A stretch of DNA of 21,666 nucleotides from Myxococcota bacterium (GCA_040752415.1 JBFMGU010000183.1:1-21666); one strand, 5' to 3'; positions 1 through 21,408 are shown, numbered from the stretch's first letter. Notes: generated by a model not told the origin, from the sequence alone. Made by a program: numbers and translations.

Positions 1-118
1 CAGAATGTAGACGCCACCTCAATTCTCCGCCTGTGCCCACGTCGAAGATCAACATGGCTGCACAGGTCCAGCCAAACATGCGGCGAATCGGCAGGGCGGA
101 CGTCACCTCCCTATGATG

Positions 119-191
119 CCTGCGAAATGCAGTTCGCTGCCAAGGGATGAGCAAGACGTAACCTCTCTTGTCGCCTGCCAATGTCATTGGC
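119..191 (-). repeat. Solo copy of the 73-bp dyad module also found in both arms of the MITE at 16301-16636
   Basis: The reverse complement reads GCCAATGAcATTGGC-aGGC-11 nt purine-rich-TTACGTCTTGCTC-23 nt-TCGCAGG. It aligns without gaps to 16477-16549(-) at 52/73 identities by manual count. Confidence 0.85.
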
Positions 192-383
192 GGGAGCGAA
201 GGGATTGCCAGGAGGTTCACGTCGCCATCGTCGTCGGGGAAGAGTCCCGCGCCGTTGTCAGCGCCGCTCCCATTCGTCCGCCAATCGCCGCGCAGCCGCT
301 GCGCGCGCGCGCAAGAAACGGCCGCACCTCGCGACGCAACACGCAAGGATTCGCGTCTTTCCGCCCGGGGAACACGGTGCGCA

Positions 384-400
384 TTGGCACCGATTCCGCA
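384..400 (+). promoter_or_regulatory. Candidate sigma-54 (-24/-12) promoter of the ATPase gene
   Basis: TTGGCACCGATTCCGCA has TGGCAC plus the exact GG-N10-GC spacing, ~30 nt before ATG 432. The -12 box is imperfect (CCGC instead of TTGC). Confidence 0.4.
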
Positions 401-431
401 TCCATCCCAAGTCGTTGGGAGCGGAGGCGGC

Positions 432-2264
432 ATGCGGCTCGGCGACTACCTGGTGTCCATGGGCTCGGTGAGTCGTGCCGTCGTCGAGGAAGCCGCGGCG
501 GCGTCCGCCAAGGCGGGCAAGCTCCTGGGTGAGACGCTGGTGGAGCGCAACATCGTGGATGAGCGCGACCTGTACCGCGCGCTGGCCACCAACCACGGCC
601 TCCGCTTCGCCGACGCCGACACGCTCTTTGGTGAGATGGACCCGCAGGTGGCGCGCGCGGTGCCCAAGGCGTTCCGCTCGCATGAACGGATCATTCCCAT
701 CGCGGTGAGCCATGGTCGCGTGGTGGCGGCCACCACCAATCCGCGCGCCGCGCACCCGGAGCTGGCGCAGGCGCTCGGGGCCACGGGCGTCGACTTCACG
801 CTGGTGACGCCCACGGACCTCAGGCGCCTGGCCACCGGCGTGGACCTCAACCAGCTCCCCCGACCCAGCGGCGCCAGCGGAGCATCCACCGACATCAAGG
901 ACATGATGCGCAATGAGCAGGACGTGTCCCCGGAGCTGGTGGCGCTGGTGGACTCCCTGCTGCTCGACGCCATTGCCCAGCGCGCCAGCGACATCCACCT
1001 GGAGATCTACGGGAGCCGCGTGCGCGTGCGCTTCCGCGTCGACGGAGACCTGGTGGACGCGGCGCGGTACCGCCTGACGCGCGAGCAGCTCGCGGGAGTG
1101 ATCAACGTCGTCAAGGTGACGGCGCGGCTGGACATCGCGGAGCGTCGTCTGCCCCAGGGAGGCCGCTGCACCGTGCGCGCGGGCGACCACGTCTTTGACC
1201 TGCGCGTGCAGACCCAACCCGCGCTGCACGGTGAGCACGTGGTCATCCGCCTGCTCCCCCATGACGCCAGGATCCCCGCGGTGGAGGACCTGGGCTTCCC
1301 GCACGACGTCGCCATCACCTACCGCCGGCTGCTGCAGACGCCCGCGGGCATGGTGCTGGTGGTGGGGCCCACGGGCTCGGGCAAGTCCACCACGCTGTAC
1401 GCGGGGCTGCAGCTGTTGGCGCAGGATGCGTCGCGGAAGGTGATCACGGTCGAGGATCCCATTGAGTACGCCATCGACGGCATCCAGCAGACGGAGGCGC
1501 GGCCGGACATCGGCTTTGCGTTCGCCCATGCCATGCGCGCTTTCGTGCGGGAGGACCCGGACGTGATCCTCGTCGGGGAAATCCGCGACGCGGAGACCGC
1601 GCTGGAAGCCATCCGCGCCTCGCAGACCGGCCACCTGGTGCTCTCCACGCTGCACTGCAATGACACCGTGGACGCCGTGCAGCGCCTCCGCGACCTGGGC
1701 ATGCACGCCAACTCCGTGGCCGCGGAGCTCCTGGCGGTGTTCGCGCAGCGCCTGGCCCGACGCATCTGCACCGAGTGCAAGGCGCCGCACACGCCGTCGG
1801 AGACGCTGGTGCGCGAGATCTTCCCCGGCGGGCAGATGCCGTTCCCATCCTTCAAGGGGAAGGGCTGCGCGCGCTGTCATGGAACGGGGGCGTACGGTCG
1901 CATTGCCGCGGTGGAGGTCCTGCTGGCCGGCCCCGACGTCAGGCGCGCCATCAGTCGACAACTTCCCCTGGATGACCTGCGGTCCGCGGCGCTGAATGCC
2001 GGACTGGTCCCCATGCGGGAGCACGCGCTCTCGTTGGTGCAGCAGGGCATCATTGCGCTGGAGGAGCTGCCCACCATGCTTCCCGCGGAGCGGTTGCGAC
2101 CGGGAGCCCCGGCGCCCCGTCGCACGACGTCGCGCGCACGCCGCGCCACGGACCGTGCCCCCAAGGACGCCGCGCCGTCACGCGCGCCCGCGCCGGCGCC
2201 CGTGCCCGCGGAAGAAGTGGGCTTGGAGCTCGAGGAGGCCGCCAATTCGCCCGGCGCTCTCTGA
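432..2264 (+). CDS. GspE/PilB-family secretion/pilus assembly ATPase with MshEN-like N-terminal domain (610 aa)
   Basis: Walker A GPTGSGKS, Asp box TVEDPIE, Walker B DPDVILVGEIRD, His box GHLVLSTLH, Zn tetracysteine CTEC...CARC, RASDIHLE and LDIAERRLPQGG. Start moved from 168 to ATG 432 (GGAGG at 423-427; begins MRLGDYL). Confidence 0.93.
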   Translation: MRLGDYLVSMGSVSRAVVEEAAAASAKAGKLLGETLVERNIVDERDLYRALATNHGLRFADADTLFGEMDPQVARAVPKAFRSHERIIPIAVSHGRVVAATTNPRAAHPELAQALGATGVDFTLVTPTDLRRLATGVDLNQLPRPSGASGASTDIKDMMRNEQDVSPELVALVDSLLLDAIAQRASDIHLEIYGSRVRVRFRVDGDLVDAARYRLTREQLAGVINVVKVTARLDIAERRLPQGGRCTVRAGDHVFDLRVQTQPALHGEHVVIRLLPHDARIPAVEDLGFPHDVAITYRRLLQTPAGMVLVVGPTGSGKSTTLYAGLQLLAQDASRKVITVEDPIEYAIDGIQQTEARPDIGFAFAHAMRAFVREDPDVILVGEIRDAETALEAIRASQTGHLVLSTLHCNDTVDAVQRLRDLGMHANSVAAELLAVFAQRLARRICTECKAPHTPSETLVREIFPGGQMPFPSFKGKGCARCHGTGAYGRIAAVEVLLAGPDVRRAISRQLPLDDLRSAALNAGLVPMREHALSLVQQGIIALEELPTMLPAERLRPGAPAPRRTTSRARRATDRAPKDAAPSRAPAPAPVPAEEVGLELEEAANSPGAL

Positions 2265-2343
2265 GCAACGCGAAGCTGGAAGGAGGATGGACGGATGCGC
2301 CAACGGCGGCGAGGAGAGGGCCGTCGTCGGACGAGGGAAGAGC

Positions 2344-2958
2344 CTACCTGGTCTCGCCCTGCGGCGCGGCGGGCTGTGCGCCACCGGCACCCGGCGCCAC
2401 GTTGCTGCCCGCGGCCGGGGGGCTGCCCGCCGCCGGCGACGCCGCACCACCGCCCTGCGCGGGAGGAGTCTGCGTGGGGCTGGCGCCCGCGGACGGGGCC
2501 GCCGACTTCGCCTCGCTGGTGGCCGCGCTCGTGGCCCCGCCGGGGAGCGGCTCATCCTCCGTCCCCGTGAACGGGTTGGTGATGTCGCGCGGGTGCTTGG
2601 CCTCAATACCCTCCGCCAGGCCACGACCCTCCGTGTCCGCCATGGTGAAGCCAATGAAGATGGCCAGGAACACCAGCGAGCTGACGAAGATGATGCCGTT
2701 GAACTTCTTGTCAAAGGCCAGGTGCATGAAGATCAGCGAGACCATCGCCGCCTTCATCGTCGCCACCGTCAGCGCAATCACCAGGTTGAAGATGCCGAAG
2801 TCCACGTAGCTGACCGCCACGGTGATGGCCGTGAAGACCAGCAGGGCCAGCCAGACCCCGATGTAGAAAGGAAGCGGCAGCACGTGCGGCACGTGGTCGG
2901 CGCCGCCGTGACCGTGTCCGTGCCCATGTCCTTCAGATGCGTGTGCGTGTGCAGACAT
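2344..2958 (-). CDS. coxD: Cytochrome c oxidase subunit IV (CtaF/CoxD-like) with His-rich N-terminus and low-complexity C-terminal tail
   Basis: Three hydrophobic helices with the KA..V...FMHL motif; last gene of the cox cluster. Confidence 0.88.
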   Translation of the reverse strand: MSAHAHASEGHGHGHGHGGADHVPHVLPLPFYIGVWLALLVFTAITVAVSYVDFGIFNLVIALTVATMKAAMVSLIFMHLAFDKKFNGIIFVSSLVFLAIFIGFTMADTEGRGLAEGIEAKHPRDITNPFTGTEDEPLPGGATSAATSEAKSAAPSAGASPTQTPPAQGGGAASPAAGSPPAAGSNVAPGAGGAQPAAPQGETR

Positions 2959-2973
2959 TGCCAGCCTCCCTCG

Positions 2974-3650
2974 TCAACCAACCAGGTACAGAAGCGGGAA
3001 CAGGTAGATCCAGACGAGGTCCACCAGGTGCCAGTACAGGCCCACGCACTCCACCGGCACGTAGTAGCGGCTGGAGAAGTGGCCCTTCATGTTCCGCAAC
3101 AGCACCCACCCGATCAACACCATGCCGCACACCACGTGGAAGCCGTGGATGCCGGTCATCATGAAGTAGATGCCAAAGAAGATCTTCTCGTCGGGATACT
3201 TCGCGCCGGCGTAGGTGAAGTAGCGGCCCGGCAACAGCCCGTCGTGGAACTTGTGGCTGTACTCAAAGTACTTGATGACGAGGAAGGCGCCCGCAAACAA
3301 GAGCGTGGCAATCAGGAACGCGGTGGCCTGCTTCTGGTTGTTGGTCTGGCAGGCGCGCACGCCCAACGCCATGGTGAGACTGCTGCAGATGAGCACCACG
3401 GTGTTGATGCCGCCCATCACCTTGTCCAGGTGGTGGTGCGCGGAGACGAAGGCCTCCAGGTGCCAGGAACGGAACACCGCGAAGGCGCAGAAGAGCCCGC
3501 CGAACAGCAGGATTTCCGTCACCAGGAACAGCCAGACGCCCAGCTTGGCGCTGTCGAACTGCTCGTCGGCGCTGTCAAAGTGGTGCGCCACATGGAACTG
3601 CGGAGAGAGCTTGCTGGTATCAGCCGCGTGCGCGGTGGAGTGCGAGGCGC

Positions 3651-3654
<4 letters not shown>
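2974..3654 (-). CDS. coxC: Cytochrome c oxidase subunit III (short form)
   Basis: [43 protein letters not shown]. The GTG start overlaps the coxA stop (GTGA). Confidence 0.96.
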
Positions 3655-5282
<1,628 letters not shown>

Positions 5283-5332
5283 CTCGCGACCTCTTTCTCA
5301 AACCATCAATCAAACAAGGAATCCGGTGCTGC

Positions 5333-6283
5333 TCACTTCTGGGCCTTGATGAACGCAATCAGGCCCGCCACGTCCTCATCCTTCAACTGCCCCTGGAACG
5401 TGGGCATCACCGGCGGGAATCCCTTCACCAGCTTGGCAGCGGGGGTGAGGATGGATTCACGCAGGTAGTTCTCATCCACCTTGGCGGTGGTTCCGTCGGC
5501 CAGGGTCTCCTCCTTGCCAAACAACCCCTTGAACGAGGGCCCTGCCCCGGGCGTCCCGTCCAGGCTGTGGCAGGCGTTGCAGCCCTTGCCGGTGTACAGG
5601 TTCTTGCCCAGCTCCTCGGGCGGCAGGCCCTTGGCCTTGGCGCTGGCCTCTTCACTGAGCCACTTCTCGAACTCCGCCGGCTCCAGCACCTTGACGTGCG
5701 CCAGCATGTCGCTGTGGCTCATCCCGCAGTACTCGGTGCAGAACAGCGTGGTCTCACCGGCCTCCGTGGCCTCGAACCACAGCGTGGTGTAGTTGCCCGG
5801 CACCAGGTCCGTCTTCACCCGGAACTCCGGGATGTAGAGGCTGTGGAGCACGTCGCGGCTGCTCATGATGAGGCGCACCGGCTTGCCCTTGGGCACCACC
5901 AGCATGTTGTCCTTCTCCACGCCGTTGGCGTAGGTGAACAACCAGCTCCAGCGCTGCGCCGTCACGTTGATTTCCATGGCGCCGGCGGGAGCCACCTGGG
6001 CGTGGATGAAGCCCTTGAAGCCCACCAGGAACAGGAGCACGCACAACACACTGGGAATCACCGTCCAGGTGATCTCAATGGGCAGGTTGTGGTCCACCGT
6101 GCTGGTGACGTCATTCTCCGAGCGCCGCTTGTACTTCATCACGAAGATGACCAGCGCCCCGATGATGCCCACGAAGAAGAAGATGGACAGCCACATGGCC
6201 ACGTTCCATCCGAAATCAATCTCCGGGGCGAGGGTGGAGCCTGACCGCGGCAACCAGAACCCATCCAGCTTGACCTCTTTCAT
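5333..6283 (-). CDS. coxB: Cytochrome c oxidase subunit II with CuA site and C-terminal cytochrome c domain (caa3-like; 316 aa)
   Basis: EITWTVIP, QRWSWLFTY, DVLHS, CTEYCGMSHSDM (CuA), CNACH and distal VMP. Start set to ATG 6283 (ATGA overlap with the sco stop). Confidence 0.97.
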   Translation of the reverse strand: MKEVKLDGFWLPRSGSTLAPEIDFGWNVAMWLSIFFFVGIIGALVIFVMKYKRRSENDVTSTVDHNLPIEITWTVIPSVLCVLLFLVGFKGFIHAQVAPAGAMEINVTAQRWSWLFTYANGVEKDNMLVVPKGKPVRLIMSSRDVLHSLYIPEFRVKTDLVPGNYTTLWFEATEAGETTLFCTEYCGMSHSDMLAHVKVLEPAEFEKWLSEEASAKAKGLPPEELGKNLYTGKGCNACHSLDGTPGAGPSFKGLFGKEETLADGTTAKVDENYLRESILTPAAKLVKGFPPVMPTFQGQLKDEDVAGLIAFIKAQK

Positions 6284-7107
6284 GTCAACCGCTCCGCTTG
6301 GGTGATGGGACGGGCCCCTTGTCTCTCCCGTCGCCACAACCACGCAAGGAATCCACCCAACACCAGCATGGTCAGCAGGCCACCAAGGCGCATCACCTGT
6401 GTTGCTGCAAGCACATAGGAGCGCGCTGCCGGGTCATAGTGGAAACAGAAAAGCAGCACCTTTTCCCAGGCGCCTCCCATTCTTCCCTCGGAGGCTTCCA
6501 CCAGGGACAGGCGCAGATCCCGCTCGGGGAACACCACACCGTAGAGGGTTCGCGACAACTTCCCCTGCGGCGTCACCACAAACGCACCCGCTGCGTGCGC
6601 GTACTGCTGGGTACCTTCATCCCAGCGGTAGCCAAACCCCACCGACTGGGCCAGCTTGCGCACGTTCTCCTCGGTCCCCACCAGGAAATCCCAACCGCGC
6701 GCCGGCACCTCGCGACCGTAGGCCTTCACGTAGTTGGCCCGCTTGTCGCGCGCCACGTCCACGCCGTCACGCGGGTCAATGCTGACGGTGAGCACGCGGT
6801 ACCGGTCTCCCGCGTTCCACGCCAGCTGCTTGATGCCGTCATTGAGTCCGTTGAGCACCAGCGTGCACAACATGGGGCAGGAGTAATAGGCCAGCACCAG
6901 CAGCACCGGACGCTCACCGTCCAGGTAGCTGCCCAGCGTCACGCTCTGCCCTTCCTGGTTGGAAAACACCAGGTCGCGCGGGAGCTCCGCGCCGGGACGC
7001 TCCTCAATGCCAATGCCCTTCAGCTCGGCGGGCATGGCATCCGCGGGGAGCGCGGGCGCGCCCGCAAGCGTGGCCGCCAGGGCCAGGAAGGCGCCTGCCA
7101 CCATCAC
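6280..7107 (-). CDS. Sco/SenC-family copper chaperone with C-terminal membrane anchor
   Basis: Signal peptide, YYSCPMLC (CxxxC), QYAH His ligand, LFCFHYDP before a TM helix. Start is GTG 7107 or ATG 7104. Confidence 0.93.
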   Translation of the reverse strand: MMVAGAFLALAATLAGAPALPADAMPAELKGIGIEERPGAELPRDLVFSNQEGQSVTLGSYLDGERPVLLVLAYYSCPMLCTLVLNGLNDGIKQLAWNAGDRYRVLTVSIDPRDGVDVARDKRANYVKAYGREVPARGWDFLVGTEENVRKLAQSVGFGYRWDEGTQQYAHAAGAFVVTPQGKLSRTLYGVVFPERDLRLSLVEASEGRMGGAWEKVLLFCFHYDPAARSYVLAATQVMRLGGLLTMLVLGGFLAWLWRRERQGARPITQAERLT

Positions 7108-7155
7108 CTCCGCCCTCTGGTCACCACGCGGTCCGCCACGTCGACAACTCCCGTG

Positions 7156-7782
7156 TCACTTCAGCGACTTGATCAACGCAATCACTGCGTCGACCTCTTC
7201 ATCCTTGAGCTGTCCTGCCATGGGCGGCATCACCGGTGCAAAGCCCTTCACCAGCTTGGCCGTGGGGTTCAGGATGCTCTCCTTGATGTACGCCTCGTCG
7301 ACCTTGACCTTGGTCCCGTCCGCCAGCTCCTCCTCCTTGCCAAACAGGCCCTTGAAGGTGGGCGCCACGCCGGGAGCGCCATCCAGCGTGTGACAGGCGT
7401 TGCAGGCCTTGGTGGACCAGATCTGCTTGCCCACCTCCTCGGGGGCCAGCTTCTTGCCGGGCTCCGGCGCGGGCGCGGCGGCCACCGTGGTGGGACGCGT
7501 CTTCCACTCCGCCAGCGTCAGCTCCATGGCGCGCTGCAGCGGGATGCGCACCACGCCCTTCTCCTTGTCCACCCACTGGTAGCCGTTCAGCTTGGCCTCC
7601 TCCTGTGCGCGCAATTGTTTCAGCTCCGGAGACTCGTACTGGTAGACCTTCGTCGAGAGCTCCTGTTGCACGTTGTAGGAGAAGAATTGCTGGACGCTGA
7701 TCACAATTCCCGTCACGCCCACCACCGCGGCGACGACCGAGCCCATGATCAGCAGGTTTGGAGGTGCGTCTCTCTCTGCCAT
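7156..7782 (-). CDS. ActG-like membrane-anchored protein fused to a monoheme class I cytochrome c domain
   Basis: N-terminal TM helix, then YQWVDKEKGVVRIPLQRAM (a motif I recall in small proteins encoded after actF), an Ala/Pro linker, and CNACH...VMP. The cytochrome c call is strong; the ActG identity is inferred from position and motif. Confidence 0.8.
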   Translation of the reverse strand: MAERDAPPNLLIMGSVVAAVVGVTGIVISVQQFFSYNVQQELSTKVYQYESPELKQLRAQEEAKLNGYQWVDKEKGVVRIPLQRAMELTLAEWKTRPTTVAAAPAPEPGKKLAPEEVGKQIWSTKACNACHTLDGAPGVAPTFKGLFGKEEELADGTKVKVDEAYIKESILNPTAKLVKGFAPVMPPMAGQLKDEEVDAVIALIKSLK

Positions 7783-7820
7783 GGCAGCTTCCTCAATGGT
7801 TCCAAGGGGCGCCTGGCGCC

Positions 7821-9029
7821 TCAGAGGTTCTCGTTCAGCTTGGTTTCCGTCAGGCGCGGGTCCTTGAGCGGATACACGGGGTCACGGGAGGCGCGGATGG
7901 CCAGCCACAACAGGAGGATGCCCGCGGGCCCCAGCAGCCCGGCCACGTCAATCCAGTGGAAGTGCGCGCCGTGCGGGTCCAGGTTGGGCATCACCAGCCA
8001 GTACAGGTCCACGTAGTGCATCAGCAGCATCCACACCGCGCCAATGCCCAGCAGCAGGCGGCTACGCTTGGCGGTGCGGGAGAGCAGCAACGCAAACGGG
8101 ATGACGAAGTGGCCCAACATGAGCAGGATGCTGATGCCGCGCCAGCCCTCCTCCCAGCGGTGCCGGAAGAAGATGGTCTCCTCCGGGATGTTCGCGTACC
8201 AGATGAGGAAGAACTGGCTGAAGGCGATGTAGGCCCAGAACACCGTGAAGCCGAAGAGCAGCTTGCCGATGTCATGCTGGTGCTCGACAGTGCTCACCGA
8301 CTTGAAGATGCCCGCGCGCTGCAGCGCAATGGTCATGAGCGCCAGAGCGCTGAGTGACGACGTGGCGCTGCCCGCGAAGATGTAGACGCCGAAGATGGTG
8401 CTGTACCAGTGCGGGTCCAGGCTCATCAGCCAGTCAAACGCGGCAAACGTCAGGGACAACGCGAACACCAGCACCGCGGGGGCGCTGAAGGCCTGCATGC
8501 GCAGCGTGTGCTCCGGGTTCCCGTTGTCATCCTGCGCGCGGCTCTGGGCGCGGAAGAACCAGGAAAGACCGAACCACGCCACCAGGAAGATGACCGCGCG
8601 CGTGTAGAAGAAGCCGGTGTTCAGGTACCCCGCCTTCTTGATCAGGATGGGGTCCTGCGCGGCCTCCGGGCTCATCCAGTGATGGAACAGGTCATGCGCG
8701 CCCAGGATGATGGGGATGAACAGGACGGCGGCCAGCTGCAGCACGCCCGCCAGCCACTCCATCTGACGACGTGCCGCCACGCTCCAGCCCGCGCGGACCA
8801 GGTGCTGGATGATGACGAAGAACAGGCCGCCCAGGCCCAGCGTCAGCACCCAGGCGAAACCGGTCAGGTAGCTGAAGTAGAAGCGCTTGGCGTCGGAGGC
8901 CAATGCGGCGCCGCACGCCAACACGCCAGCGGCGGCAATCACCGCGGCCATGGTCACCAGCTTGCCGGAGACCGACTTGTCCAGCCGCTCCACGTCGGCG
9001 CCGGTTGCGCCGTGTGCATGCGCGCTCAT
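7821..9029 (-). CDS. actF: Alternative complex III subunit ActF
   Basis: Polytopic membrane protein; FDWLMSLDPHWYSTIFG, FWAYIAFSQFFLIWYANIPEE. Confidence 0.95.
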   Translation of the reverse strand: MSAHAHGATGADVERLDKSVSGKLVTMAAVIAAAGVLACGAALASDAKRFYFSYLTGFAWVLTLGLGGLFFVIIQHLVRAGWSVAARRQMEWLAGVLQLAAVLFIPIILGAHDLFHHWMSPEAAQDPILIKKAGYLNTGFFYTRAVIFLVAWFGLSWFFRAQSRAQDDNGNPEHTLRMQAFSAPAVLVFALSLTFAAFDWLMSLDPHWYSTIFGVYIFAGSATSSLSALALMTIALQRAGIFKSVSTVEHQHDIGKLLFGFTVFWAYIAFSQFFLIWYANIPEETIFFRHRWEEGWRGISILLMLGHFVIPFALLLSRTAKRSRLLLGIGAVWMLLMHYVDLYWLVMPNLDPHGAHFHWIDVAGLLGPAGILLLWLAIRASRDPVYPLKDPRLTETKLNENL

Positions 9030-9637
9030 GGAGTACCTCCGGGCGCCTGGATGCTGCCCTGCATCTGCGCGGGAACGTCATTGATGGAAGCGTGCTGGCT
9101 GCGCCCCAGCACCCGCACCCACGTCACAATCGCCCAGCGGTCCGCTTCCGTGATCTGCGCGCCGTAGGCGGGCATGTTGCGGACGCCGTTGCTGATGACG
9201 TGGAAGATTTCTCCGTCGGGGAGGCCGCGGACGCGGTCGCCGGCCAGGTCCAGCGGGGGCGGGAAGCCGCGCTGCACCACCATGCCTTTGCCGCTGCCGG
9301 AGCGGTCATGGCACGGCGCGCAGAAGATGTTGAAACGCTCCTGCCCGCGACGCAGCGTGGCCTCGGTCACCTCGATGGGTGCCAGGGCCAGGAACGCGTC
9401 GCCCTGCTTGCCGCGGTAGAAGGCGTCATCCTCCTTCAGGTAGCCGCTGGCCACCGTGCCGGGAATCTGGGGACGCATGGCGCGCCCGTCGGCAAAGAAG
9501 GCGTTGGCCTCCTGGTCCTGGAAGCGGGGCTGGTAGTCCATGTCCGGAATGATGTGGACGGGCGGGGCGGAGCTGACCTGGCCGCGACAACCCACCGCCG
9601 CCGCCAGCAGCGCCAACGCGCAAAGGGTCTTCTTCAT
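9026..9637 (-). CDS. actE: Alternative complex III monoheme lipoprotein ActE (203 aa)
   Basis: Start ATG 9637 (ATGA overlap with actD); lipoprotein signal [40 protein letters not shown]. Confidence 0.94.
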   Translation of the reverse strand: MKKTLCALALLAAAVGCRGQVSSAPPVHIIPDMDYQPRFQDQEANAFFADGRAMRPQIPGTVASGYLKEDDAFYRGKQGDAFLALAPIEVTEATLRRGQERFNIFCAPCHDRSGSGKGMVVQRGFPPPLDLAGDRVRGLPDGEIFHVISNGVRNMPAYGAQITEADRWAIVTWVRVLGRSQHASINDVPAQMQGSIQAPGGTP

Positions 9638-10191
9638 GACGCCACCTCCTGCAGCTCCTGCGCGCCAGCTTCCTCCAGCATCTTGAGGGTCCTGGTGGCG
9701 TCGTACTTGGGGTCCTTCACTTCCACGCTGACGAAGAAGCAGTTGTCGGTGGCGCGGTGGAAGGACGGGTGCTGCATGACCGGGTGGAAGAACCGCGGCA
9801 GACCGTTGAGGCCCCACATGCCCAGGAAGCATCCAAAGGAGCTGAGGAGCACCGTCACCTCAAAGGCCACCGGGATGTACGCGGGCACGGCAAAGAAGGG
9901 CTTGCCGCTGATGTTCATGGGGTAGTCCACGCCCAGCGTCCACATCTGCAGCGCGAAGCCCACGCACAACCCGAACAGGCCCATGCAGAGCACAATCCAG
10001 GGCAGGCGCGAGGGCTTCAGTCCCATGGCGCGCTCCAGGCCGTGCACGGGGAACGGCGTGTGCGCGTCAAAGTGCTTGAACCCCGCGTCCCGCAGCTTCT
10101 CGCACGCGTGGTACAGCTCCGCAGGCGTCTTGAACCAGCCCACCAGCGCGAACGGACGCGTGGGCTTGGCGTTGGTCTCAGCCGTGTGCAT
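9634..10191 (-). CDS. actD: Alternative complex III subunit ActD (DUF3341 type; 185 aa)
   Basis: [29 protein letters not shown], two TM helices; ATG 10191 with GGAGG upstream. Confidence 0.94.
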
Positions 10192-11601
10192 GGGCGGCCT
10201 CCGCGGTGTGACGCTCATCCTCGCCGTGCTCGCCGTGCGGGTTGGCCGCGGGCATCACGGCCTTCACCTCGCCAATGGCAATCATGGGCAGGTAGCGGAC
10301 GAACAACAGGAACATGGTGAAGAACAGACCAAAGCTGCCCAGGAACATGCTGATGTCAATGATGGTGGGCTGGAAGTAGCCCCAGGAGCTCGGCAGGAAG
10401 TCACGGTGGAGGCTCGTGGAGATGATCACGAAACGCTCAAACCACATGCCAATGTTCACCGTGATGCTGATGACGAACATCACCGGGATGGACGTGCGCA
10501 TCTTCTTGAACCAGAAGAGCTGCGGGCCAATCACGTTGCAGCTGATCATCGTCCAGTACGCCCACGCGTACGGGCCAAAGGCGCGGTTGGTGAACGCGTA
10601 GACCTCGTAGTCATTGCCGGAATACCAGGCAATGAAGAACTCCATGCCGTACGCGTAGCCAACCATGGTGCCGGTGGCGAGGATGATCTTGTTCATGTTC
10701 TCCAGGTGCCGGATGGTCAGCAGGTCGTGCAGGCCGTAGGCCGCGCGCGCCACCACCATCAGCGTCACCACCATGGCAAACCCGGAGAAGATGGCGCCGG
10801 CGACGAAGTAGGGCGGGAAGATGGTGGTGTGCCAGCCCGGCAGCACGCTCACCGCGAAGTCAAAGGACACGATGGTGTGCACGCTGAGCACCAGCGGGGT
10901 GGAGAGACCCGCCAGCATCAGGTACGCGCGCTCGTAGTTGACCCAGTGACGGTGGCTGCCGCGCCAACCCAGCGCGAAGATGCCGTACACCATCTGGCGG
11001 AGCTTGGTGCTGGCGCGGTCACGCAGCGTGGCCAGGTCCGGCACCAGGCCCACGTACCAGAACAGGATGGACACCGTTCCGTAGGTGGAGACCGCGAACA
11101 CGTCCCACAGCAGCGGGCTGCGGAAGTTGGGCCACATGTTCATCTGGTTGGGCAACGGGAACATCCAGTACGCCAACCAGATACGACCCACGTGGAAGCC
11201 GGGGAACAAGAGCGCCGCGAACACGGCGAAGATGGTCATGGCTTCCGCGGCGCGGTTGATGGAGGTGCGCCACTTCTGCCGGAACAGGAAGAGGATGGCG
11301 CTGATGAGCGTGCCGGCGTGACCGATACCGATCCAGAACACGAAGCCGGTGATGTCCCACGCCCAGCCGACGGGATGGTTCAGACCCCACTCACCGATAC
11401 CGACGCCCACCAGGTCCGCCAGCGTGGCGCCCAGGATGCCCAGCACCGCCAGGCTGATCAGGAAGCCCAGGATCCAGGGCTTGGGCGTGGGGCGCTCGAC
11501 GATCTCCGAGACCGCGGTGGTGACGCCGTGGAAGTCCTTGCCCCCCAACACCAGCGGGGCGCGGACGGCGGGGTTCTCATCCTGGAGCGTTGTGTTGGTG
11601 C

Positions 11602-11605
<4 letters not shown>
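10178..11605 (-). CDS. actC: Alternative complex III quinol-oxidising subunit ActC (NrfD/PsrC family)
   Basis: [65 protein letters not shown]. Confidence 0.97.
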
Positions 11606-14648
<3,043 letters not shown>

Positions 14649-14652
<4 letters not shown>

Positions 14653-15308
14653 CGGTGGCACCCCGAGCAGTGCTTGGGAGGAGCGAGCTTGCGGCCCGTG
14701 TCGAGCTGCGTGGGCTCCGGGTTGGGCGGAACGTTGGTGGGCGGCTGCCAGGCCATGTTGGTGAGGTCGGCCTGCTTGCGCAGCACCGGCGCCGGGTCGC
14801 GGTGGCAATCCAGGCACCAGCCCATGGACAGCGGCTGCACCTGCGTCACACGCGGCATCTGGTCCACGCGCCCGTGACAGGTGCTGCACCCGACGCCAGC
14901 CGCAAGGTGCGCGCTGTGGTCGAAGTACGCGTAGTCCGGGACGTTGTGCACGCGCACCCACGGGATGGCGGTGTCATTGGCGTAGCTGTCGCGCACCATC
15001 TGGAGCCGCGGGCTGTCCGCGCGCACCTTGGCGTGGCAGTTCATGCACGTGGCGGTGGGAGGCACCGCGGCCATGTGCGCGCGCTCCACGGTGTTGTGGC
15101 AGTAGCGGCAGTCCATGCCCAGGTCCCCGGCGTGCAGCTTGTGGCTGAACTCAACGGGCTGGGCGGGCTGGTAGCCCACTTCCACGTGCTTGTTGGTGAA
15201 GTAGTAGGTGACACCCAGGATGGCCGTGGTGAGCCCCGGGCCAATGCCCAGGAAGAATACCGCCGGCAGCACCCTGTTGGACCACTTTGGAAAGAGGTAG
15301 CGCTGCAT
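14649..15308 (-). CDS. actA: Alternative complex III pentaheme cytochrome c ActA (219 aa)
   Basis: N-terminal TM helix, QPVEFSHKLHAG, five CxxCH motifs (CRYCH, CMNCH, CSTCH, CLDCH, CSGCH), LSMGWC; ATG 15308 with GGGAG upstream. Confidence 0.96.
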
Positions 15309-15427
15309 GCCACGCTCCCGCGGTCTCCTCGATGAAACCGCGATGACGGTGAAGACCGCGTTCTTTTTGGCGCGCGCTATCTGCCCTGTGCTCCCACCCT
15401 CCGACAAGTGACAGACCGCCGCCAAGG

Positions 15428-15444
15428 TGCGGCAACCTGCCGCA
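15428..15444. promoter_or_regulatory. Palindromic operator resembling a RegA/PrrA/ActR box upstream of the act-cox operon
   Basis: TGCGGCA-ACC-TGCCGCA is a perfect 7-bp dyad (GCGGC-N5-GCCGC) ~120 nt upstream of actA. Confidence 0.55.
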
Positions 15445-15643
15445 GGTTCAACCTGGTGGTGATCTTCGTCGGGGAATGGTGGGTTGGCGCAGGTTCTGCG
15501 GGGAGCAGAATGCCGCGCTCCGTTTGAGAGCGCAGCTGCTGCGGGGATCCGCCGGGATCACGCGCGAGCGCGGGCTGGGACGCACGGGGATCGTCGGTCC
15601 GTGGGCGGGCGGCACGACGACACCACGCCGTTGGCGGGTGAGT

Positions 15644-15892
15644 ATGACTGCCAGGATGACCCAGGCCATGGAACGGGTGACAGCGACCTTCGACAGGGAG
15701 ACCCTCGACGCCATCAAGGAGGTCGCGGGTCCGCGCGGGCGCTCGGCCTTCCTGCAGGCGGCCGCCAAGGAGCACCTGGCCCGGACACGCCTGCTGCGCG
15801 TGCTCGACGAGCTTGACGCGGAGTGCGGAAAGGCGAGCCCGGCGGTCGAGGCGCGGGTGAAGGCGACGGCGCGACGCGTGTTCCGCCCATGA
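15644..15892 (+). CDS. Small ribbon-helix-helix (CopG/VapB-like) protein, probable type II antitoxin (74-82 aa depending on start)
   Basis: MERVTATFDRETLDAIKEVAGPRGRSAFLQAAAKEHL fits the strand-helix-turn-helix RHH pattern, and the codons are GC3-rich. Possible starts are ATG 15644, 15656 and 15668. Confidence 0.75.
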   Translation: MTARMTQAMERVTATFDRETLDAIKEVAGPRGRSAFLQAAAKEHLARTRLLRVLDELDAECGKASPAVEARVKATARRVFRP

Positions 15893-15944
15893 GCCGGCGA
15901 AGACGGCGCGAAATCCAACCCCGGCCGCCACGGTGTAGCCATGA

Positions 15945-16040
15945 AGGCCGGACGCCGCGATCCAGCGGCACCAGGGCAAGCGCCGCAACGGCTCCACCTT
16001 CCAGAGCCACGCCCACCCCACCTGCGCCACCTGTCATTGA
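15945..16040 (+). pseudogene. Start-less 3' gene fragment ending in CxxCH (possible c-type cytochrome remnant)
   Basis: Frame reads RPDAAIQRHQGKRRNGSTFQSHAHPTCATCH-stop. 27 of 29 codons in 15951-16037 end in G/C. In-frame stops at 15936 and 15942, no start codon. Confidence 0.45.
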
Positions 16041-16340
16041 CGTGGGGAGCGACGAGACGCGGTCCGACCGTGTCCGCTGGATAGCCGGGACATATGGAGG
16101 ACGTAGCACCGCCATCGCCGTCCCTGGAGCGCTGCCTCGGGGATCGCCCGGTGCTGAACCCTCCCTCTCCCCGGTGGCACACCCGGGCAACTGCGGCGGA
16201 GCGCGCAAGCTTTGCGCCGCCGTTGCGGCAGGTCCTCGCGGGCGACGCGCTTCCCGTAGGCTCCCGAATGGCGGTGGCAGGGGTGACAAGTCTTTCGTTT
16301 GAGTGCGGCTCTCATCCTGACGCCTCTTCCCGCGCTCCCT

Positions 16341-16412
16341 GCCAATGAGATTGGCAGGCAACAAAGAAGCTCAAGTCCTGCTCTCCTCTCGGCGGCGGTG
16401 CCGCGTCGCAGG
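16341..16412 (+). repeat. 72-bp dyad module, left MITE arm
   Basis: GCCAATGAgATTGGC-aGGC-AACAAAGAAGC-TCAAGTCCTGCTC-22 nt-TCGCAGG. Confidence 0.88.
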
Positions 16413-16476
16413 ACTAACCGTGAATGGGACGCGCGGGCAAAAGCGACGAACGAGGACAAGGCCCTTCACTGGCAGT

Positions 16477-16549
16477 CCTGCGAAACGCGTCCATCGGCCA
16501 GGTGGTGAGCAGGACTTGACCCTTCCTGCTGCCGGCCAATTTCATTGGC
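16477..16549 (-). repeat. 73-bp dyad module, right MITE arm
   Basis: Reverse complement: GCCAATGAaATTGGC-cGGC-AGCAGGAAGGG-TCAAGTCCTGCTC-23 nt-TCGCAGG. Confidence 0.88.
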
Positions 16550-17076
16550 AGGGACTTCAGAGCGTCATCCCGAGGGAGCCGCACCGCGCTACTGGAGGGC
16601 CTCGTCGGGCGAGGCGTCAGGATGAGAGCCGCACCCTTTCGTTTGTGCGCGGTTACCTTCGCCAACGCCCGTAGTGCACACTAAATCCCTTCACGGCCCT
16701 TTCTGGACTCCAAGTGCGACGGACACGACCTCTCAGGATTCGACAAGGCTGTTGAGCACGCCGCATTCCACGCTGGCCGACGCCTGGCGAAGTCCCACGG
16801 GAGAACCCTGGTGTCGCGGACCATCATGGGGCTCAGGCAATCCGGTCCCAACCGGCCGGGACACGAACGTGGTGATATGTCGATGCGATTTCCGTTGTAA
16901 GGCCACGCGATGCTGCTGCGCGGGCGGAAGGTGAAGTTCATCAGACGGATTGGCCAGTTACCCGGGCACCCTTCCTGTGGCCCGTGTCGTCGGCACGAAA
17001 GGGGTGGCCGGGACGGAATGCGCCTCGAGACTCGTGCGTTGCCCTCCGCGCGCTAAAGCGGCCCGTGGAGGCTGGC

Positions 17077-19878
17077 ATGCCGAGTGCTGATTTCCCGCCT
17101 TCGGGCATGCGGCGCGCCGGCGGCTTGCTGTTTGTCGTTGCCTGTGTCGTTGCCATCGTCATGTTGATCGGCTGGACGTTCAACATAGACAAGTTTAGGC
17201 GCATTCGTCCTGGCTTGGTCAGCATGAAGGCGAACACCGCAGCGTGCGTCCTGCTTGTGGGCGTTGCCCTGTGTGTCAGGAGAAGGGCCGCGGAGAGCTC
17301 GCGATTGCAGGGCGTGGCCGCGGCATTGGGTGGGGCGGCGTTGATCATCGCGTGCCTGGGCGCCGCGGAATACGCGACGGGCGTCGACCTCGGCATAGAC
17401 CAGGTGCTTGCATGGGACCCTGGCGACGGAGGGACCTCCTCGGCGGGGCGCATGTCGCCCATCACGGCCCTCAACATTGCCCTGCTTGGTGTTGCGGCGT
17501 TGGGCTGGAATCGACGCCTTCGAGGCGTGGCCGTCCAGGACTGGTTCGCGGTGGCCGTGATGGCCAATCTGTTGGCGCCCGCCGCTGGCTACCTCTACGA
17601 AGCACGGACGCTCTACCAGGCAAGCGCTGCCACAGCCATTGCCCCCCACACCATCGGAGTGCTCCTCCTGCTCGCCGTGGGCATCCTGCTCCAGGGCGGC
17701 GCGGGCAGCCTCCTGGCAGCCGTGATGGCGGACACCGTCACGGGCCTGATGTTGCGTCAGTTCATCCCGCTGGTGGCGCTGCTTCCCGTCGCGCTGGGCT
17801 ACGCGCGCCTGGCCGCGCAACGAGCTGGCCTGTTTGGCCTGGAGGTGGGCCTCGCCCTCTACGCCACGACCAACGTGCTGTGCCTTACCGCGTTCGTCGC
17901 CATTGCTTCGGTGCGCATGAGCCGACTCGAGAGAGCAAGGGAGGCGAGCGCCCGCGAAGCTTCCCGACGGCAGGAGGAACTGGCCACCACGCTGAACTCC
18001 ATCGGCGACGCAGTCATCTGCACGGACCCGGGCGGCCGCATTGTCCGCATGAACCCCGTGGCGGAGCTCCTCACGGGATGGCGCCTGCCAGATGCGCTGG
18101 GACGCCTCCTGCCTGAGGTCTTCCACATCGTGGACCACGGCTCGCGCGAACTCTGCCCGAGTCCGGTCGACCGCGTCCTGCAGCATGACGAGATGGTGGA
18201 GCTGACCGCCCACACGGACCTGGTTGCACGAGATGACGTGCAGCGCCCGATTGCCGCCAGCGCCGCACCCATCCGCCACGACGGTCAGCTCATGGGCGTG
18301 GTGGTGGTCTTCCGGGACGTATCCGAGCGCGAGCGCGCGGAACGACACGCGGAAGACCAGGCCCGGTTGTTGCGGTCCGTGATCGAGAGCATTGGTGATG
18401 GCGTCGCCGTCGTCGACGAGACGGGGAAGGTGCTGGTGTGGAATCCCGCGGCGGAATCCATGATGCATCTTGGCGCCTCAGACACCGCACCGTCCCACTG
18501 GTCGGCGCACCACGGGTTGTTTCTCCCGGATGGCAAGACGCTGTACCCCGAGGACCAGCTCCCGCTCGTTCGCGCCATGCGCGGCGAATACTGCGACCGC
18601 GTGGAAGTCTTTGTCCGCAACGCAGCGCGCCCGGACGGCATGTTCCTCAGCGTCACCGCACGGCCCCTGCTGCGCGGCCACCGCCCCTCCGGCGGCGTGG
18701 CGGTGTTTCGCGACGTCACCGACGAGCGTGCGCGCAACAGCCAGCTCATCGAGAGTGAGCGCCTTGCCTCGGTGGGAACACTTGCGGCGGGCGTCGCGCA
18801 TGAAATCAACAACCCCTTGTCAGCCGTCATCGCCAATCTCGACATCGGGATCGAGGACCTGCAACGGGCCGAACGAACCGGAAACCATGCGCAGGCGTGG
18901 CCGACGGTCATGGGGGCCCTGGGCGACGCCAAGGAGTGTGCGGACCGCATCCGGTTCATCGTCCGGGACTTGCGCGTGTTCTCCCGCGCCGACGAGGACC
19001 TTAGACAACCCATAGACGTTCACCGGGTCCTCGACTCCTGCACCCGCATGGCATGGAACGAGGTGCGCCACCGCGCCCGCCTGGAGAAGGAATACCGCGC
19101 AGCCATCCCGACGGTTCACGCGAACGAAGCTCGGCTTGGCCAGGTCTTCCTCAATCTCCTGGTGAATGCCGCCCAGGCCATTCCCGAGGGCCACGCCGAC
19201 GAGCACTGCATCTGGGTGCGCACCTCAAACCCCAACGACAGCGCCTGTTCCGTGGAGATCGAAGACACCGGGGGCGGCATCCCCGCCGAAGTCATGGAGC
19301 GCCTGTTCACCCCCTTTGTGACCACCAAGCCAGCCGCCGTCGGGACGGGACTGGGCCTCTCGATCTGCCACCGCATCGTCCAATCCCTGGGCGGGCTGAT
19401 CTGGGCGGAGAACGTGGGTCGCGGGACGCGCTTCACGGTGCTGCTGCCGATGTCCCAGAAGCACCATGAGGCAGCCACCGTCGAAACAACCGTCAGGCAA
19501 GCCAGCAGCCGGGGCGCCGTCCTGGTGGTGGACGACGAGCGCGTGGTTGGGCAGACCATCAAGCGCGGCCTGACCGAACACGACGTCACCACCGTGACCA
19601 GCGGCGCGGACGCGTTGTCCCTGTTCCGCGAGGGCAGGAAGTACGACGTCGTCTTCTGCGACCTGATGATGCCGAACATGACCTGCGCGCAGTTCCACAC
19701 CGAGCTGGCCAAGGTTTCGCCGGAACACCTGCAGCGCATCGTGTTCCTGACGGGAGGAGCCTTCACTCCCGCCGCGCGCCTGTTCCTGGACAACGCGCGG
19801 ACCGAGACCATCGACAAGCCGTTCGACATCAACCAGCTGCGGGACCTCGTCGCCAGGCGAGTGGGCGCGGGCGTGTGA
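17077..19878 (+). CDS. Membrane-bound hybrid sensor histidine kinase (multi-TM sensor, 2 PAS, HisKA, HATPase_c, receiver; ~933 aa)
   Basis: About 7-8 hydrophobic segments; two SIGD(A/G)V...NP.AE PAS starts; H-box GVAHEINNPL; N-box QVFLNLLVNAAQA; DTGGG, FTPFVTTK, GTGLGL; receiver VLVVDDE...CDLMMP...KP. ATG 17077 with GGAGG at 17067-17071. Confidence 0.95.
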   Translation: MPSADFPPSGMRRAGGLLFVVACVVAIVMLIGWTFNIDKFRRIRPGLVSMKANTAACVLLVGVALCVRRRAAESSRLQGVAAALGGAALIIACLGAAEYATGVDLGIDQVLAWDPGDGGTSSAGRMSPITALNIALLGVAALGWNRRLRGVAVQDWFAVAVMANLLAPAAGYLYEARTLYQASAATAIAPHTIGVLLLLAVGILLQGGAGSLLAAVMADTVTGLMLRQFIPLVALLPVALGYARLAAQRAGLFGLEVGLALYATTNVLCLTAFVAIASVRMSRLERAREASAREASRRQEELATTLNSIGDAVICTDPGGRIVRMNPVAELLTGWRLPDALGRLLPEVFHIVDHGSRELCPSPVDRVLQHDEMVELTAHTDLVARDDVQRPIAASAAPIRHDGQLMGVVVVFRDVSERERAERHAEDQARLLRSVIESIGDGVAVVDETGKVLVWNPAAESMMHLGASDTAPSHWSAHHGLFLPDGKTLYPEDQLPLVRAMRGEYCDRVEVFVRNAARPDGMFLSVTARPLLRGHRPSGGVAVFRDVTDERARNSQLIESERLASVGTLAAGVAHEINNPLSAVIANLDIGIEDLQRAERTGNHAQAWPTVMGALGDAKECADRIRFIVRDLRVFSRADEDLRQPIDVHRVLDSCTRMAWNEVRHRARLEKEYRAAIPTVHANEARLGQVFLNLLVNAAQAIPEGHADEHCIWVRTSNPNDSACSVEIEDTGGGIPAEVMERLFTPFVTTKPAAVGTGLGLSICHRIVQSLGGLIWAENVGRGTRFTVLLPMSQKHHEAATVETTVRQASSRGAVLVVDDERVVGQTIKRGLTEHDVTTVTSGADALSLFREGRKYDVVFCDLMMPNMTCAQFHTELAKVSPEHLQRIVFLTGGAFTPAARLFLDNARTETIDKPFDINQLRDLVARRVGAGV

Positions 19879-19955
19879 GCCGCCTGGCCCGGGCGAAAAC
19901 CCGCCCCGAGGTCTCCGCATCCAACCCGGCCGCCACCTGCCCCTGACGTCGGGAT

Positions 19956-21209: not shown

Positions 21210-21408
21210 GTGTCTTCCCCCCATGCACCGCTGGCAACGTACGAATTGCGTGCCGCGGCTCGCCGTGCGCGCAGCATAGTCCAGGTGATTGGCAATCCCT
21301 CCCGGAATTCTCCGAGATGGCTGACCGGGTTCCCTGCAACGCCCGCGCACCCTGCGCGTTGACGGAAGATGGGCCCGCCTCCCGGGCTGTCGGACCGTCC
21401 GCGCCGCC

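What the first reader, a model, noticed from the sequence alone, without database searches (positions are those of the whole stretch)
119..16549. An unexplained 72-73-bp dyad module occurs three times: both MITE arms plus a solo copy 16 kb away
Seen in the sequence: copies at 119-191(-), 16341-16412(+) and 16477-16549(-) share the layout GCCAAT-GAN-ATTGGC / NGGC / 11-nt spacer RRCARRRRRGS / TYAMGTCYTGCTC / 22-23 nt / TCGCAGG. Copies 1 and 3 align ungapped at 52/73 (manual count). Conservation sits in blocks, while the spacers drift in sequence but keep their length. In the two MITE copies AGTCCTGC...GCAGGACT forms a second dyad. Inference: block conservation with fixed spacing fits a multi-subsite protein-binding or recombination site (res-like or a transposon subterminal array) or a two-hairpin RNA, rather than neutral decay. 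The solo copy lacks a clear TIR, so the module may be older than, or independent of, the MITE. Copies 1 and 3 are in direct orientation and bracket the ATPase plus the whole act-cox operon. I do not recognise the motif.
Basis: partly seen in the sequence, partly recalled or inferred. Interest (0 to 1): 0.72.

Follow-up and report, generated by a model that had tools for sequence, protein, structure and literature searches.

The report
Y1-transposase arms carried in a MITE
The 73-base module is one of 83 copies of a two-hairpin repeat that also brackets a small single-strand (Y1) transposase gene in this genome; it was likely spread inside a miniature transposon of an unrelated family, and the 'solo' copy is one arm cut off by another insertion sequence, so it is mobile DNA rather than a recombination site.

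Summary
The genome has 83 copies at 49 intergenic loci, 58 of them in inward-facing pairs. The same module flanks, inverted, a single Y1 HUH transposase gene on another contig. The same two-hairpin architecture points at related Y1 genes in 36 of 57 metagenome loci (wrong strand: 1 of 57). The window pair sits in a 336-bp MITE with an exact 8-bp target duplication. Its terminal repeat matches an ISKra4 (Mutator-like DDE) end; that transposase was not found in this assembly. The 'solo' copy is half of a pair interrupted at a fixed trinucleotide by a multicopy, unassembled IS with IS1111-like ends. The first dyad is also a landing hotspot for the MITE family itself. The res-site/excision and structured-RNA readings are not supported. 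Verdict: a new variant of TIRtron/REPIN-type repeats captured by DDE ends. The scan met what is likely this family before on other DNA of this genome (e1-7716919).

The parts
1..118 (-). Left end of a multicopy IS (body unassembled, contig starts inside it); IS1111-like by its ends (inferred). Sub-terminal inverted repeat at 99-111; -10-like hexamer at 113-118
   Evidence: 100% identical to the ends of C42, C11, C5, C161, C27. The other end is on C247, C119, C422, C248, C367. End alignment.
119..121 (.). CCT/AGG trinucleotide present at both IS junctions (core or 3-bp duplication), inside the 3' arm of the module's second dyad
119..194 (-). Module copy 1: hairpin 1 at 174-194; second dyad truncated by the IS; one arm of an interrupted pair
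   Evidence: outer-arm remnant of about 12 nt
16293..16300 (+). Left copy of the 8-bp target-site duplication TTTCGTTT
16301..16636 (.). 336-bp MITE: ISKra4-type TIRs enclosing an inward-facing pair of modules; 97% identical to a full copy on C6
   Evidence: 24-bp perfect inverted repeat 16303-16326/16611-16634; fold z -11.2
16338..16415 (+). Module copy 2: hairpin 1 at 16338-16358; second dyad arms at 16374-16381 and 16408-16415
16413..16476 (.). Central spacer between the two module arms (subfamily-specific)
   Evidence: 92-97% matches on 7 other places
16474..16552 (-). Module copy 3, inverted partner of copy 2
16637..16644 (+). Right copy of the 8-bp target-site duplication TTTCGTTT

Best explanation
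The module is a dispersed two-hairpin repeat that flanks a Y1 (HUH) transposase gene in inverted orientation and is likely that enzyme's recognition end; inward-facing pairs of it lie between ISKra4-type terminal repeats and were likely spread as a 275-337-bp MITE by a Mutator-like DDE transposase acting in trans. Shown: the 83 copies, the pairing, the Y1 gene bracketed by the module, the 8-9-bp target duplications, the TIR match to an ISKra4 end, and the fixed IS junction. Inferred steps: (1) a Y1 element lost its gene and left a REPIN-like pair; (2) the pair was captured between DDE ends; (3) the stems stay invariant because the Y1 protein still binds them on single-stranded DNA; (4) hairpin 1 is a preferred landing site of the same DDE enzyme, which builds nested arrays; (5) an IS1111-like element targets the second dyad, which made the window's 'solo' copy.
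For: Family: 83 hits, 0 in the control; 58 of 83 in inverted pairs; 0 of 49 loci inside an ORF by a crude filter. Y1 link: PF01797 gene at C24:5900-6232 (59.3 bits) is flanked by inward-facing modules without MITE outer arms. It has HVH and Y-x3-Q-x2-HH intact and matches IS608 TnpA in the PDB (E 4.8e-8). The site is empty in same-family genome G001 (flgE-flbD gap 15 nt). Related Y1 genes show the same architecture pointing at the gene in 36 of 57 loci with both flanks (19 on both sides; wrong strand 1 of 57; ten shuffles 0); strict version 32 of 57, 15 of 57, 0. Stem pairs vary across these loci but stay paired. DDE spread: exact 8-9-bp TSDs at 5 of 29 pairs and one mismatch at 2 more. The TIR 24-mer (1 mismatch) follows the 3' end of an ISKra4 fragment in G091 (NF033572 E 3.2e-50). 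Guerillot 2014 gives 18-39-bp IRs, terminal C and 8-9-bp DRs. Hotspot: 43 of 78 TIR ends abut the dyad's central 9-mer (background 0.06%), with direct duplication at C24 and C36 (9/9) and C317 (8/9). IS: 6 left and 5 right junctions, all at the same CCT.
Against: No ISKra4 transposase was found in the G000 assembly, and no IS110 transposase, so both enzymes are inferred from ends. No related Y1 locus matches the module by sequence; only the architecture is shared, and my detector was designed after seeing some of those flanks. Stems were required by the detector, so their cross-genome covariation is partly circular. 21 of 57 loci show no module. In the relatives the second hairpin has a short loop; here it has a 23-25-nt unstructured loop. 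The flanks of the two closest Y1 proteins (P0002, P0003) could not be read. The Y1 protein has RKG where relatives have LKG/MKG, and its activity is untested. Most pairs (22 of 29) show no clean TSD; 19 of 78 arms end at variable points in the outer arm, which DDE transposition alone does not explain. Many dyad-adjacent TIR ends are copies of one compound element, so 43 of 78 overstates independent events.
Confidence: 0.68

Rival explanations
1. Plain REPIN-type spread: the Y1 enzyme moves the module pairs with variable flanks, and the ISKra4-type ends are passengers that drove only a few recent copies.
For: 19 of 78 arms keep only 8-34 nt of the outer arm, at no shared boundary. TIR-less arms are as conserved as TIR-bearing arms (0.50 vs 0.42 mismatches in 33 nt, p=0.75). 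The TIR is less conserved than the module.
Against: 51 of 78 arms carry the TIR and all 19 truncated arms retain part of the MITE outer arm, so they derive from the MITE form. Seven pairs have (near-)exact 8-9-bp TSDs. The genome's second Y1 gene (C12) has a TIR-less module with only 3 copies (one comparison).
Confidence: 0.14
2. The invariant blocks are kept by a host protein (for example a dimeric DNA-binding regulator or nucleoid protein) that binds two dyads at fixed spacing on double-stranded DNA; the Y1 association is only ancestral.
For: Stems are invariant with almost no compensatory change within the genome, and the second dyad has a fixed-length unstructured interior, as a dsDNA site would. 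All loci are intergenic.
Against: Found in 0 of 40 relatives apart from the IS end in G001. No preferred orientation to flanking genes. Relatives of the Y1 gene keep the pairing, not the sequence. No sigma-70 promoter or terminator consensus in 16200-17000.
Confidence: 0.11
3. The module is a two-hairpin structured RNA.
For: Both dyads can fold; the whole MITE folds strongly as a single strand.
Against: No Rfam match. The inner loop folds no better than shuffles (mean z +0.8; 1 of 71 below -1). Only one compensatory pair change in the two stems among 71 distinct copies. Copies occur in both orientations relative to genes.
Confidence: 0.04
4. Copies 1 and 3 are res-like recombination sites that excise or invert the ATPase plus act-cox block.
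For: They are in direct orientation 16,358 bp apart and have a multi-subsite look.
Against: They are 2 of 83 copies. Copy 1 is broken by an IS at its second dyad. They are only 71% identical. None of the 19 window ORFs scanned is a recombinase. The gene bracketed elsewhere is a Y1 transposase.
Confidence: 0.03

Closest known systems
TIRtrons/TIRYT with 'double palindromic TIRs' (Di Nocera et al. 2013, PMC3733652; section 16 and passages read; Figure 9 and file S5 not visible)
   Same: Y1 gene flanked by inverted, partly self-complementary repeats without a GTAG tag; some of those repeats are dispersed as dimers or clusters.
   Different: Here the pairs are enclosed by ISKra4-type TIRs with 8-9-bp TSDs. 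I could not compare sequences with their Figure 9, so identity with one of their families is untested.
REPIN-RAYT systems (Bertels and Rainey 2011, PMC3116915, passages; Corneloup 2021, PMC8266576, first part)
   Same: Inverted doublets with conserved arms and a variable spacer; intergenic; one cognate Y1 gene flanked by the repeat; singlets derive from broken doublets.
   Different: No GT[AG]G foot. The arm is bipartite and about 75 nt rather than 20-50 nt. The protein scores with IS200-type TnpA (51.7 bits, cut-off 55) rather than RAYT (25.4, cut-off 80). Full copies carry DDE-type TSDs.
TnpA-Y1 subclass 1.2 (Quentin et al. 2018, PMC6006769; sections 6, 12, 17, 18 read)
   Same: Short protein, DH[IV]H, WQ and Y-x3-Q-x2-HH motifs (69 of 90 family rows); low copy number.
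   Different: That paper lists no REPs and generally no terminal structures for 1.2, and places it mostly in Cyanobacteria and Bacteroidetes. Here a conserved, strand-specific bipartite flank is found at 36 of 57 loci.
ISKra4-family (p-MULT 4) IS and their MITEs (Guerillot et al. 2014, PMC3942029; section 11 and passages read)
   Same: TIR of about 24 bp ending in C; 8-9-bp DR; TIR sequence matches the end of an ISKra4 fragment.
   Different: Non-autonomous; the interior is a foreign Y1-type pair that is better conserved than the TIR; it carries its own preferred landing site 37-39 nt inside each end.
IS1111/IS110-family elements that target REPs (Tobes and Pareja 2006, PMC1525189, abstract; Siddiquee 2024, PMC11187229, passages)
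   Same: One fixed site in a palindromic repeat; sub-terminal IR with unequal extensions; -35/-10 promoter predicted on joining the ends; long non-coding right end.
   Different: Transposase not recovered; sub-terminal IR matches only 10 of 13 here; the shared junction is a trinucleotide.

Membership tests
REP/REPIN-RAYT | Dispersed intergenic palindromes mostly in inverted doublets | tested here: met
   58 of 83 paired; 0 of 49 loci inside an ORF
REP/REPIN-RAYT | Single-copy Y1 gene flanked by the repeat | tested here: met
   empty site in G001
REP/REPIN-RAYT | GT[AG]G tetranucleotide at the hairpin foot | tested here: not met
   Flanks of hairpin 1 show no such conserved tag on either strand
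REP/REPIN-RAYT | Enzyme of the RAYT (class 2) type | tested here: not met
   NF047646 25.4 bits vs cut-off 80; NF033573 51.7 vs 55
REP/REPIN-RAYT | ssDNA cleavage and strand transfer by the cognate enzyme | not testable with these tools
   needs biochemistry
TIRtron/TIRYT (Di Nocera 2013) | Y1 gene flanked by inverted non-GTAG repeats, some dispersed as dimers | tested here: met
TIRtron/TIRYT (Di Nocera 2013) | Sequence or protein group matching their listed TIRYTs | not testable with these tools
   Figure 9 not held; S5.doc unreadable
TnpA-Y1 subclass 1.2 | DH[IV]H, WQ, Y-x3-Q-x2-HH motifs; short; low copy | tested here: met
TnpA-Y1 subclass 1.2 | Clusters with the authors' subclass profile and C-terminal domain | not tested
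   their profiles were not available; assignment is by motifs only
ISKra4-family MITE | 18-39-bp IR with terminal C matching an ISKra4 end | tested here: met
ISKra4-family MITE | 8-9-bp direct repeats | tested here: met
   exact at 5 of 29 pairs, one mismatch at 2 more, including the window copy
ISKra4-family MITE | Cognate transposase in the same genome | tested here: inconclusive
   no hit, but multicopy IS bodies are unassembled in this 520-contig genome
IS1111 family (element at 1-118) | Sub-terminal IR of 11-13 bp with about 7 and 3 nt extensions | tested here: inconclusive
   10 of 13 match with 7 and 5 nt extensions in G000; 12 of 14 with 6 and 4 nt in the G001 relative
IS1111 family (element at 1-118) | Promoter formed by joining the ends | tested here: met
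   TTGACA at the right end and CATCAT at the left end would lie 17 nt apart across the core; also in G001 ends (junction predicted, not observed)
IS1111 family (element at 1-118) | DEDD transposase | tested here: inconclusive
   body missing; no PF01548 or PF02371 hit in G000, no PF02371 hit in G001
IS1111 family (element at 1-118) | Downstream non-coding RNA with matches to both target strands | tested here: inconclusive
   one 9-nt target match in 332 nt of the right end (26 of 2000 shuffles as good); no clear second match; fold z -0.36
IS1182 family (element at 1-118) | Inverted repeats at the very termini; IS1182 transposase (end layout recalled) | tested here: not met
   terminal bases are not complementary; the genome's one IS1182 gene (C499) has different ends
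res / site-specific recombination site | Near-identical partner sites and a linked serine or tyrosine recombinase | tested here: not met
   71% identity; copy 1 broken; none among 19 window ORFs scanned
Structured ncRNA | Rfam match or covariation in stems | tested here: not met

The most novel reading that the evidence does not exclude
A two-enzyme miniature element: a DDE (ISKra4-type) MITE whose interior is an intact, still-selected substrate for an unrelated HUH transposase, so that one element moves by double-strand copy-out transposition and is also cut or moved on single strands. It also carries its own landing pad and so stacks into nests. The bipartite arm would be the missing cognate end of Y1 subclass 1.2, a group described as lacking such repeats.
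Probability: 0.27. Interest if true: 0.7.

Novelty: new variant of a known kind. Interest (0 to 1): 0.42.

Why it matters
It gives a concrete, testable DNA substrate for a little-studied group of IS200-like Y1 proteins that were described without REPs. It also shows how REPIN-like repeats can be amplified by capture between the ends of an unrelated transposon. And one short repeat serves as the target for two other mobile-element classes, one of them probably RNA-guided. It does not bear on regulation or excision of the act-cox respiratory operon.

Tried and rejected
Res-site/excision and ncRNA readings were rejected (see rivals). Rfam: no hit for the window or for three loci. Full-length relatives of the IS at 1-118 were sought without success: genome contigs gave only two G001 ends, metagenome 0, viral 0 and 0, plasmids 0. 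Four IS110 loci from G002, G003 and G026 have unrelated ends. The module HMM finds nothing significant in 80 related Y1 loci (best E 1.6). P0001 was not found with this query in G001-G003. The UPF0236 search rang in no control genome, so it is uninformative. The Y1 tree is a quick tree, not the finished careful one, and I use it only to say that module-bearing loci are spread through the family. Rows dropped: 23 of 80 Y1 loci lacked 200 nt on a flank or a forward hit; 9 of 83 module hits could not be parsed, 5 and 8. The TSD script mis-paired ends for C132, C179, C317 and C390; these are counted as no TSD. A resemblance to cyanobacterial small dispersed repeats (SDR5) is recalled only; that paper was not held. 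Searches for a prior description of this exact arrangement listed none beyond the papers named. No structure or complex prediction was run.
Full report
Observation. The window is the whole of contig C94 in an 11.0-Mb, 520-contig, 68.9% GC assembly. Between the copies lie a GspE/PilB-type ATPase and the act-cox respiratory genes; none of the 19 ORFs scanned is a recombinase. Rfam has no match.

It is a genome-wide family. A profile built from the three copies and iterated once finds 83 copies at E<1e-3, with none in the reversed genome. They fall in 49 loci, none inside an ORF by a crude coding filter, with no preferred orientation to neighbouring genes. 58 of the 83 form inward-facing pairs 22-63 nt apart. 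Conservation is block-wise. The 33 core bases are 97% identical pairwise among 68 distinct copies, and both spacers are 62% identical. Stem pairs are nearly invariant, with one compensatory change, and the 23-25-nt interior of the second dyad folds no better than shuffles. A DNA search with window 1-200 found the module in none of 40 relatives; the only outside matches were IS ends in G001.

The 'solo' copy. Window 1-118 is 100% identical to the ends of five other contigs. Each of these is joined to a different module variant at exactly the same base, after GCAGG. Five further contigs carry a second shared end, joined to a module spacer at the same CCT. Copy 1 is therefore one arm of a pair split by a multicopy IS whose body did not assemble. 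The ends have no terminal inverted repeat. They have a sub-terminal one (10 of 13 here, 12 of 14 in a G001 relative), and on joining they would place TTGACA 17 nt before CATCAT. Siddiquee 2024 (passages) describes these features for IS1111-family elements. The right end holds one 9-nt match to the target (26 of 2000 shuffles as good), a weak hint of a guide. No transposase was recovered, so the family label is an inference, about 70%.

Origin of the module. The assembly has two Y1 transposase genes. The one on C24 lies between flgE and flbD and is bracketed by inward-facing modules that lack MITE outer arms. In same-family genome G001 that junction is 15 nt long and empty. The protein keeps HVH and the catalytic Tyr in Y-x3-Q-x2-HH. 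It scores closer to IS200 TnpA than to RAYT and fits the motifs of Quentin's subclass 1.2, described as without REPs. I fetched 80 metagenome loci of related proteins. None matches the module by sequence. Of the 57 with both flanks, 36 have the same layout pointing at the gene: a perfect or near-perfect 8-9-bp hairpin, CA, a spacer, then a second dyad starting A-G-Y-C-C. Nineteen have it on both sides, 1 has it on the wrong strand, and ten shuffles gave 0 (strict version 32, 15 and 0). The detector was written after seeing some of these flanks and requires pairing, so the strand control carries the weight. Di Nocera 2013 (section 16) described Y1 genes flanked by 'double palindromic TIRs' dispersed as dimers; I could not see their figure or alignment file.

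How it spread. The window pair lies in a 336-bp element, 16301-16636, with a perfect 24-bp inverted repeat and an exact 8-bp duplication on both sides. Five of 29 pairs have exact 8-9-bp duplications and two more have one mismatch. The TIR pattern occurs in 3 of 301 genomes of the phylum. In G091 it directly follows the 3' end of an ISKra4 transposase fragment. Guerillot 2014 (section 11) gives 18-39-bp IRs with a terminal C and 8-9-bp DRs for this superfamily. No such transposase is in the G000 assembly. Against a pure DDE story, the module is better conserved than the TIR, and 19 of 78 arms end at variable points in the outer arm with no loss of core conservation (p=0.75). Something still selects on the module; the Y1 protein is the best candidate. 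The other Y1 gene's TIR-less module has only 3 copies, which fits amplification by DDE capture but is a single comparison.

The first dyad is a landing site. 43 of 78 TIR ends sit directly against the dyad's central 9-mer (background 0.06%). At C24 and C36 that 9-mer is duplicated exactly around a nested MITE, and at C317 a distinctive variant is duplicated at 8 of 9 bases. Non-dyad flanks show a symmetric AW-N5-WT preference (A1 22, W2 25, W8 23, T9 25 of 30), which the dyad centre fits. The genome has 20,083 such sites against about 100 dyads, so sequence preference alone does not explain the enrichment. Many of the 43 ends are copies of compound elements and are not independent events. Inverted dyad flanks at C42, C71 and C357 fit transposase-mediated deletion into the second dyad (inference). 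The apparent tandem arrays on C36, C93 and C24 are such nests.

A protein-recognised, block-conserved module older than the MITE: supported. A res-like site bracketing act-cox: not supported, because these are 2 of 83 copies, 71% identical, and one is broken. A structured RNA: not supported; expression could not be examined, as no run was listed.

Verdict. A real feature and a new variant of known kinds: TIRtron/REPIN-like arms of an IS200-like Y1 transposase inside an ISKra4-type MITE, targeted by its own family and by an IS1111-like element. It fails strict REP/RAYT membership (no GTAG tag, not a class 2 enzyme) but works like one in layout. The scan already noted what is likely this family on another contig (e1-7716919). 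New here are the cross-genome bipartite architecture, the TSD and ISKra4 evidence, the landing hotspot and the explanation of the 'solo' copy. Interest 0.42.

Noticed in passing
L023 2501-4030 (G001:C91): A roughly 1.5-kb element with the same IS1111-like ends carries only an AAA/STAND-type ATPase gene (PF13191) and no transposase: a cargo-carrying non-autonomous derivative. Its target flanks differ from those in G000, as expected if targeting is programmable.
   Followed up: partly
L021 36-640 (G000:C12): Second Y1 gene of the same family next to gyrB-like sequence (by eye), followed by two tandem bipartite modules of the same architecture but different sequence; only 3 copies in the genome.
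   Followed up: partly
G000 C42:18036-18643, C71:188-1033, C357:4012-4342, C479:1400-2177, C317:4800-5525: At least two other non-coding elements (about 330 bp and 600-850 bp) share the ISKra4-type TIR and nest in the dyad.
   Followed up: partly
G000 C6:551-, C108:13500-, C119:18200-18530; C472:42420-42770: Other palindromic repeat families (one with GGGGAAGGGGGG arms, one different) are inserted into the central spacer of module pairs.
   Followed up: no
L032 643-1896 (G000:C499): Intact-looking single-copy IS1182-family transposase (NF033551, 315 bits) with its own ends, unrelated to this module.
   Followed up: partly
L033 1-1500 (G091:C148): The ISKra4 fragment is truncated next to a 309-aa-plus Y1 gene with NHYH and YIHLNP motifs (class 2 type in Quentin's table).
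   Followed up: no
L053 979-1500 (G001:C89): An IS1111-like right end sits just after a short ORF that looks like an IS91-type transposase tail (recalled resemblance; no Pfam hit).
   Followed up: no
window 15476-15892 (+): 138-aa ORF with coding-like composition and no Pfam hit, between actA and the MITE.
   Followed up: no
window 5333-5632 and 7156-7455: 300-nt repeat at 72%: the cytochrome c domain of CoxB and the stand-alone cytochrome c gene look like a domain duplication.
   Followed up: no
window 16984-21350: PAS hybrid histidine kinase (+) and a family-1/28-type glycosyltransferase (-) follow the MITE; ordinary genes.
   Followed up: no
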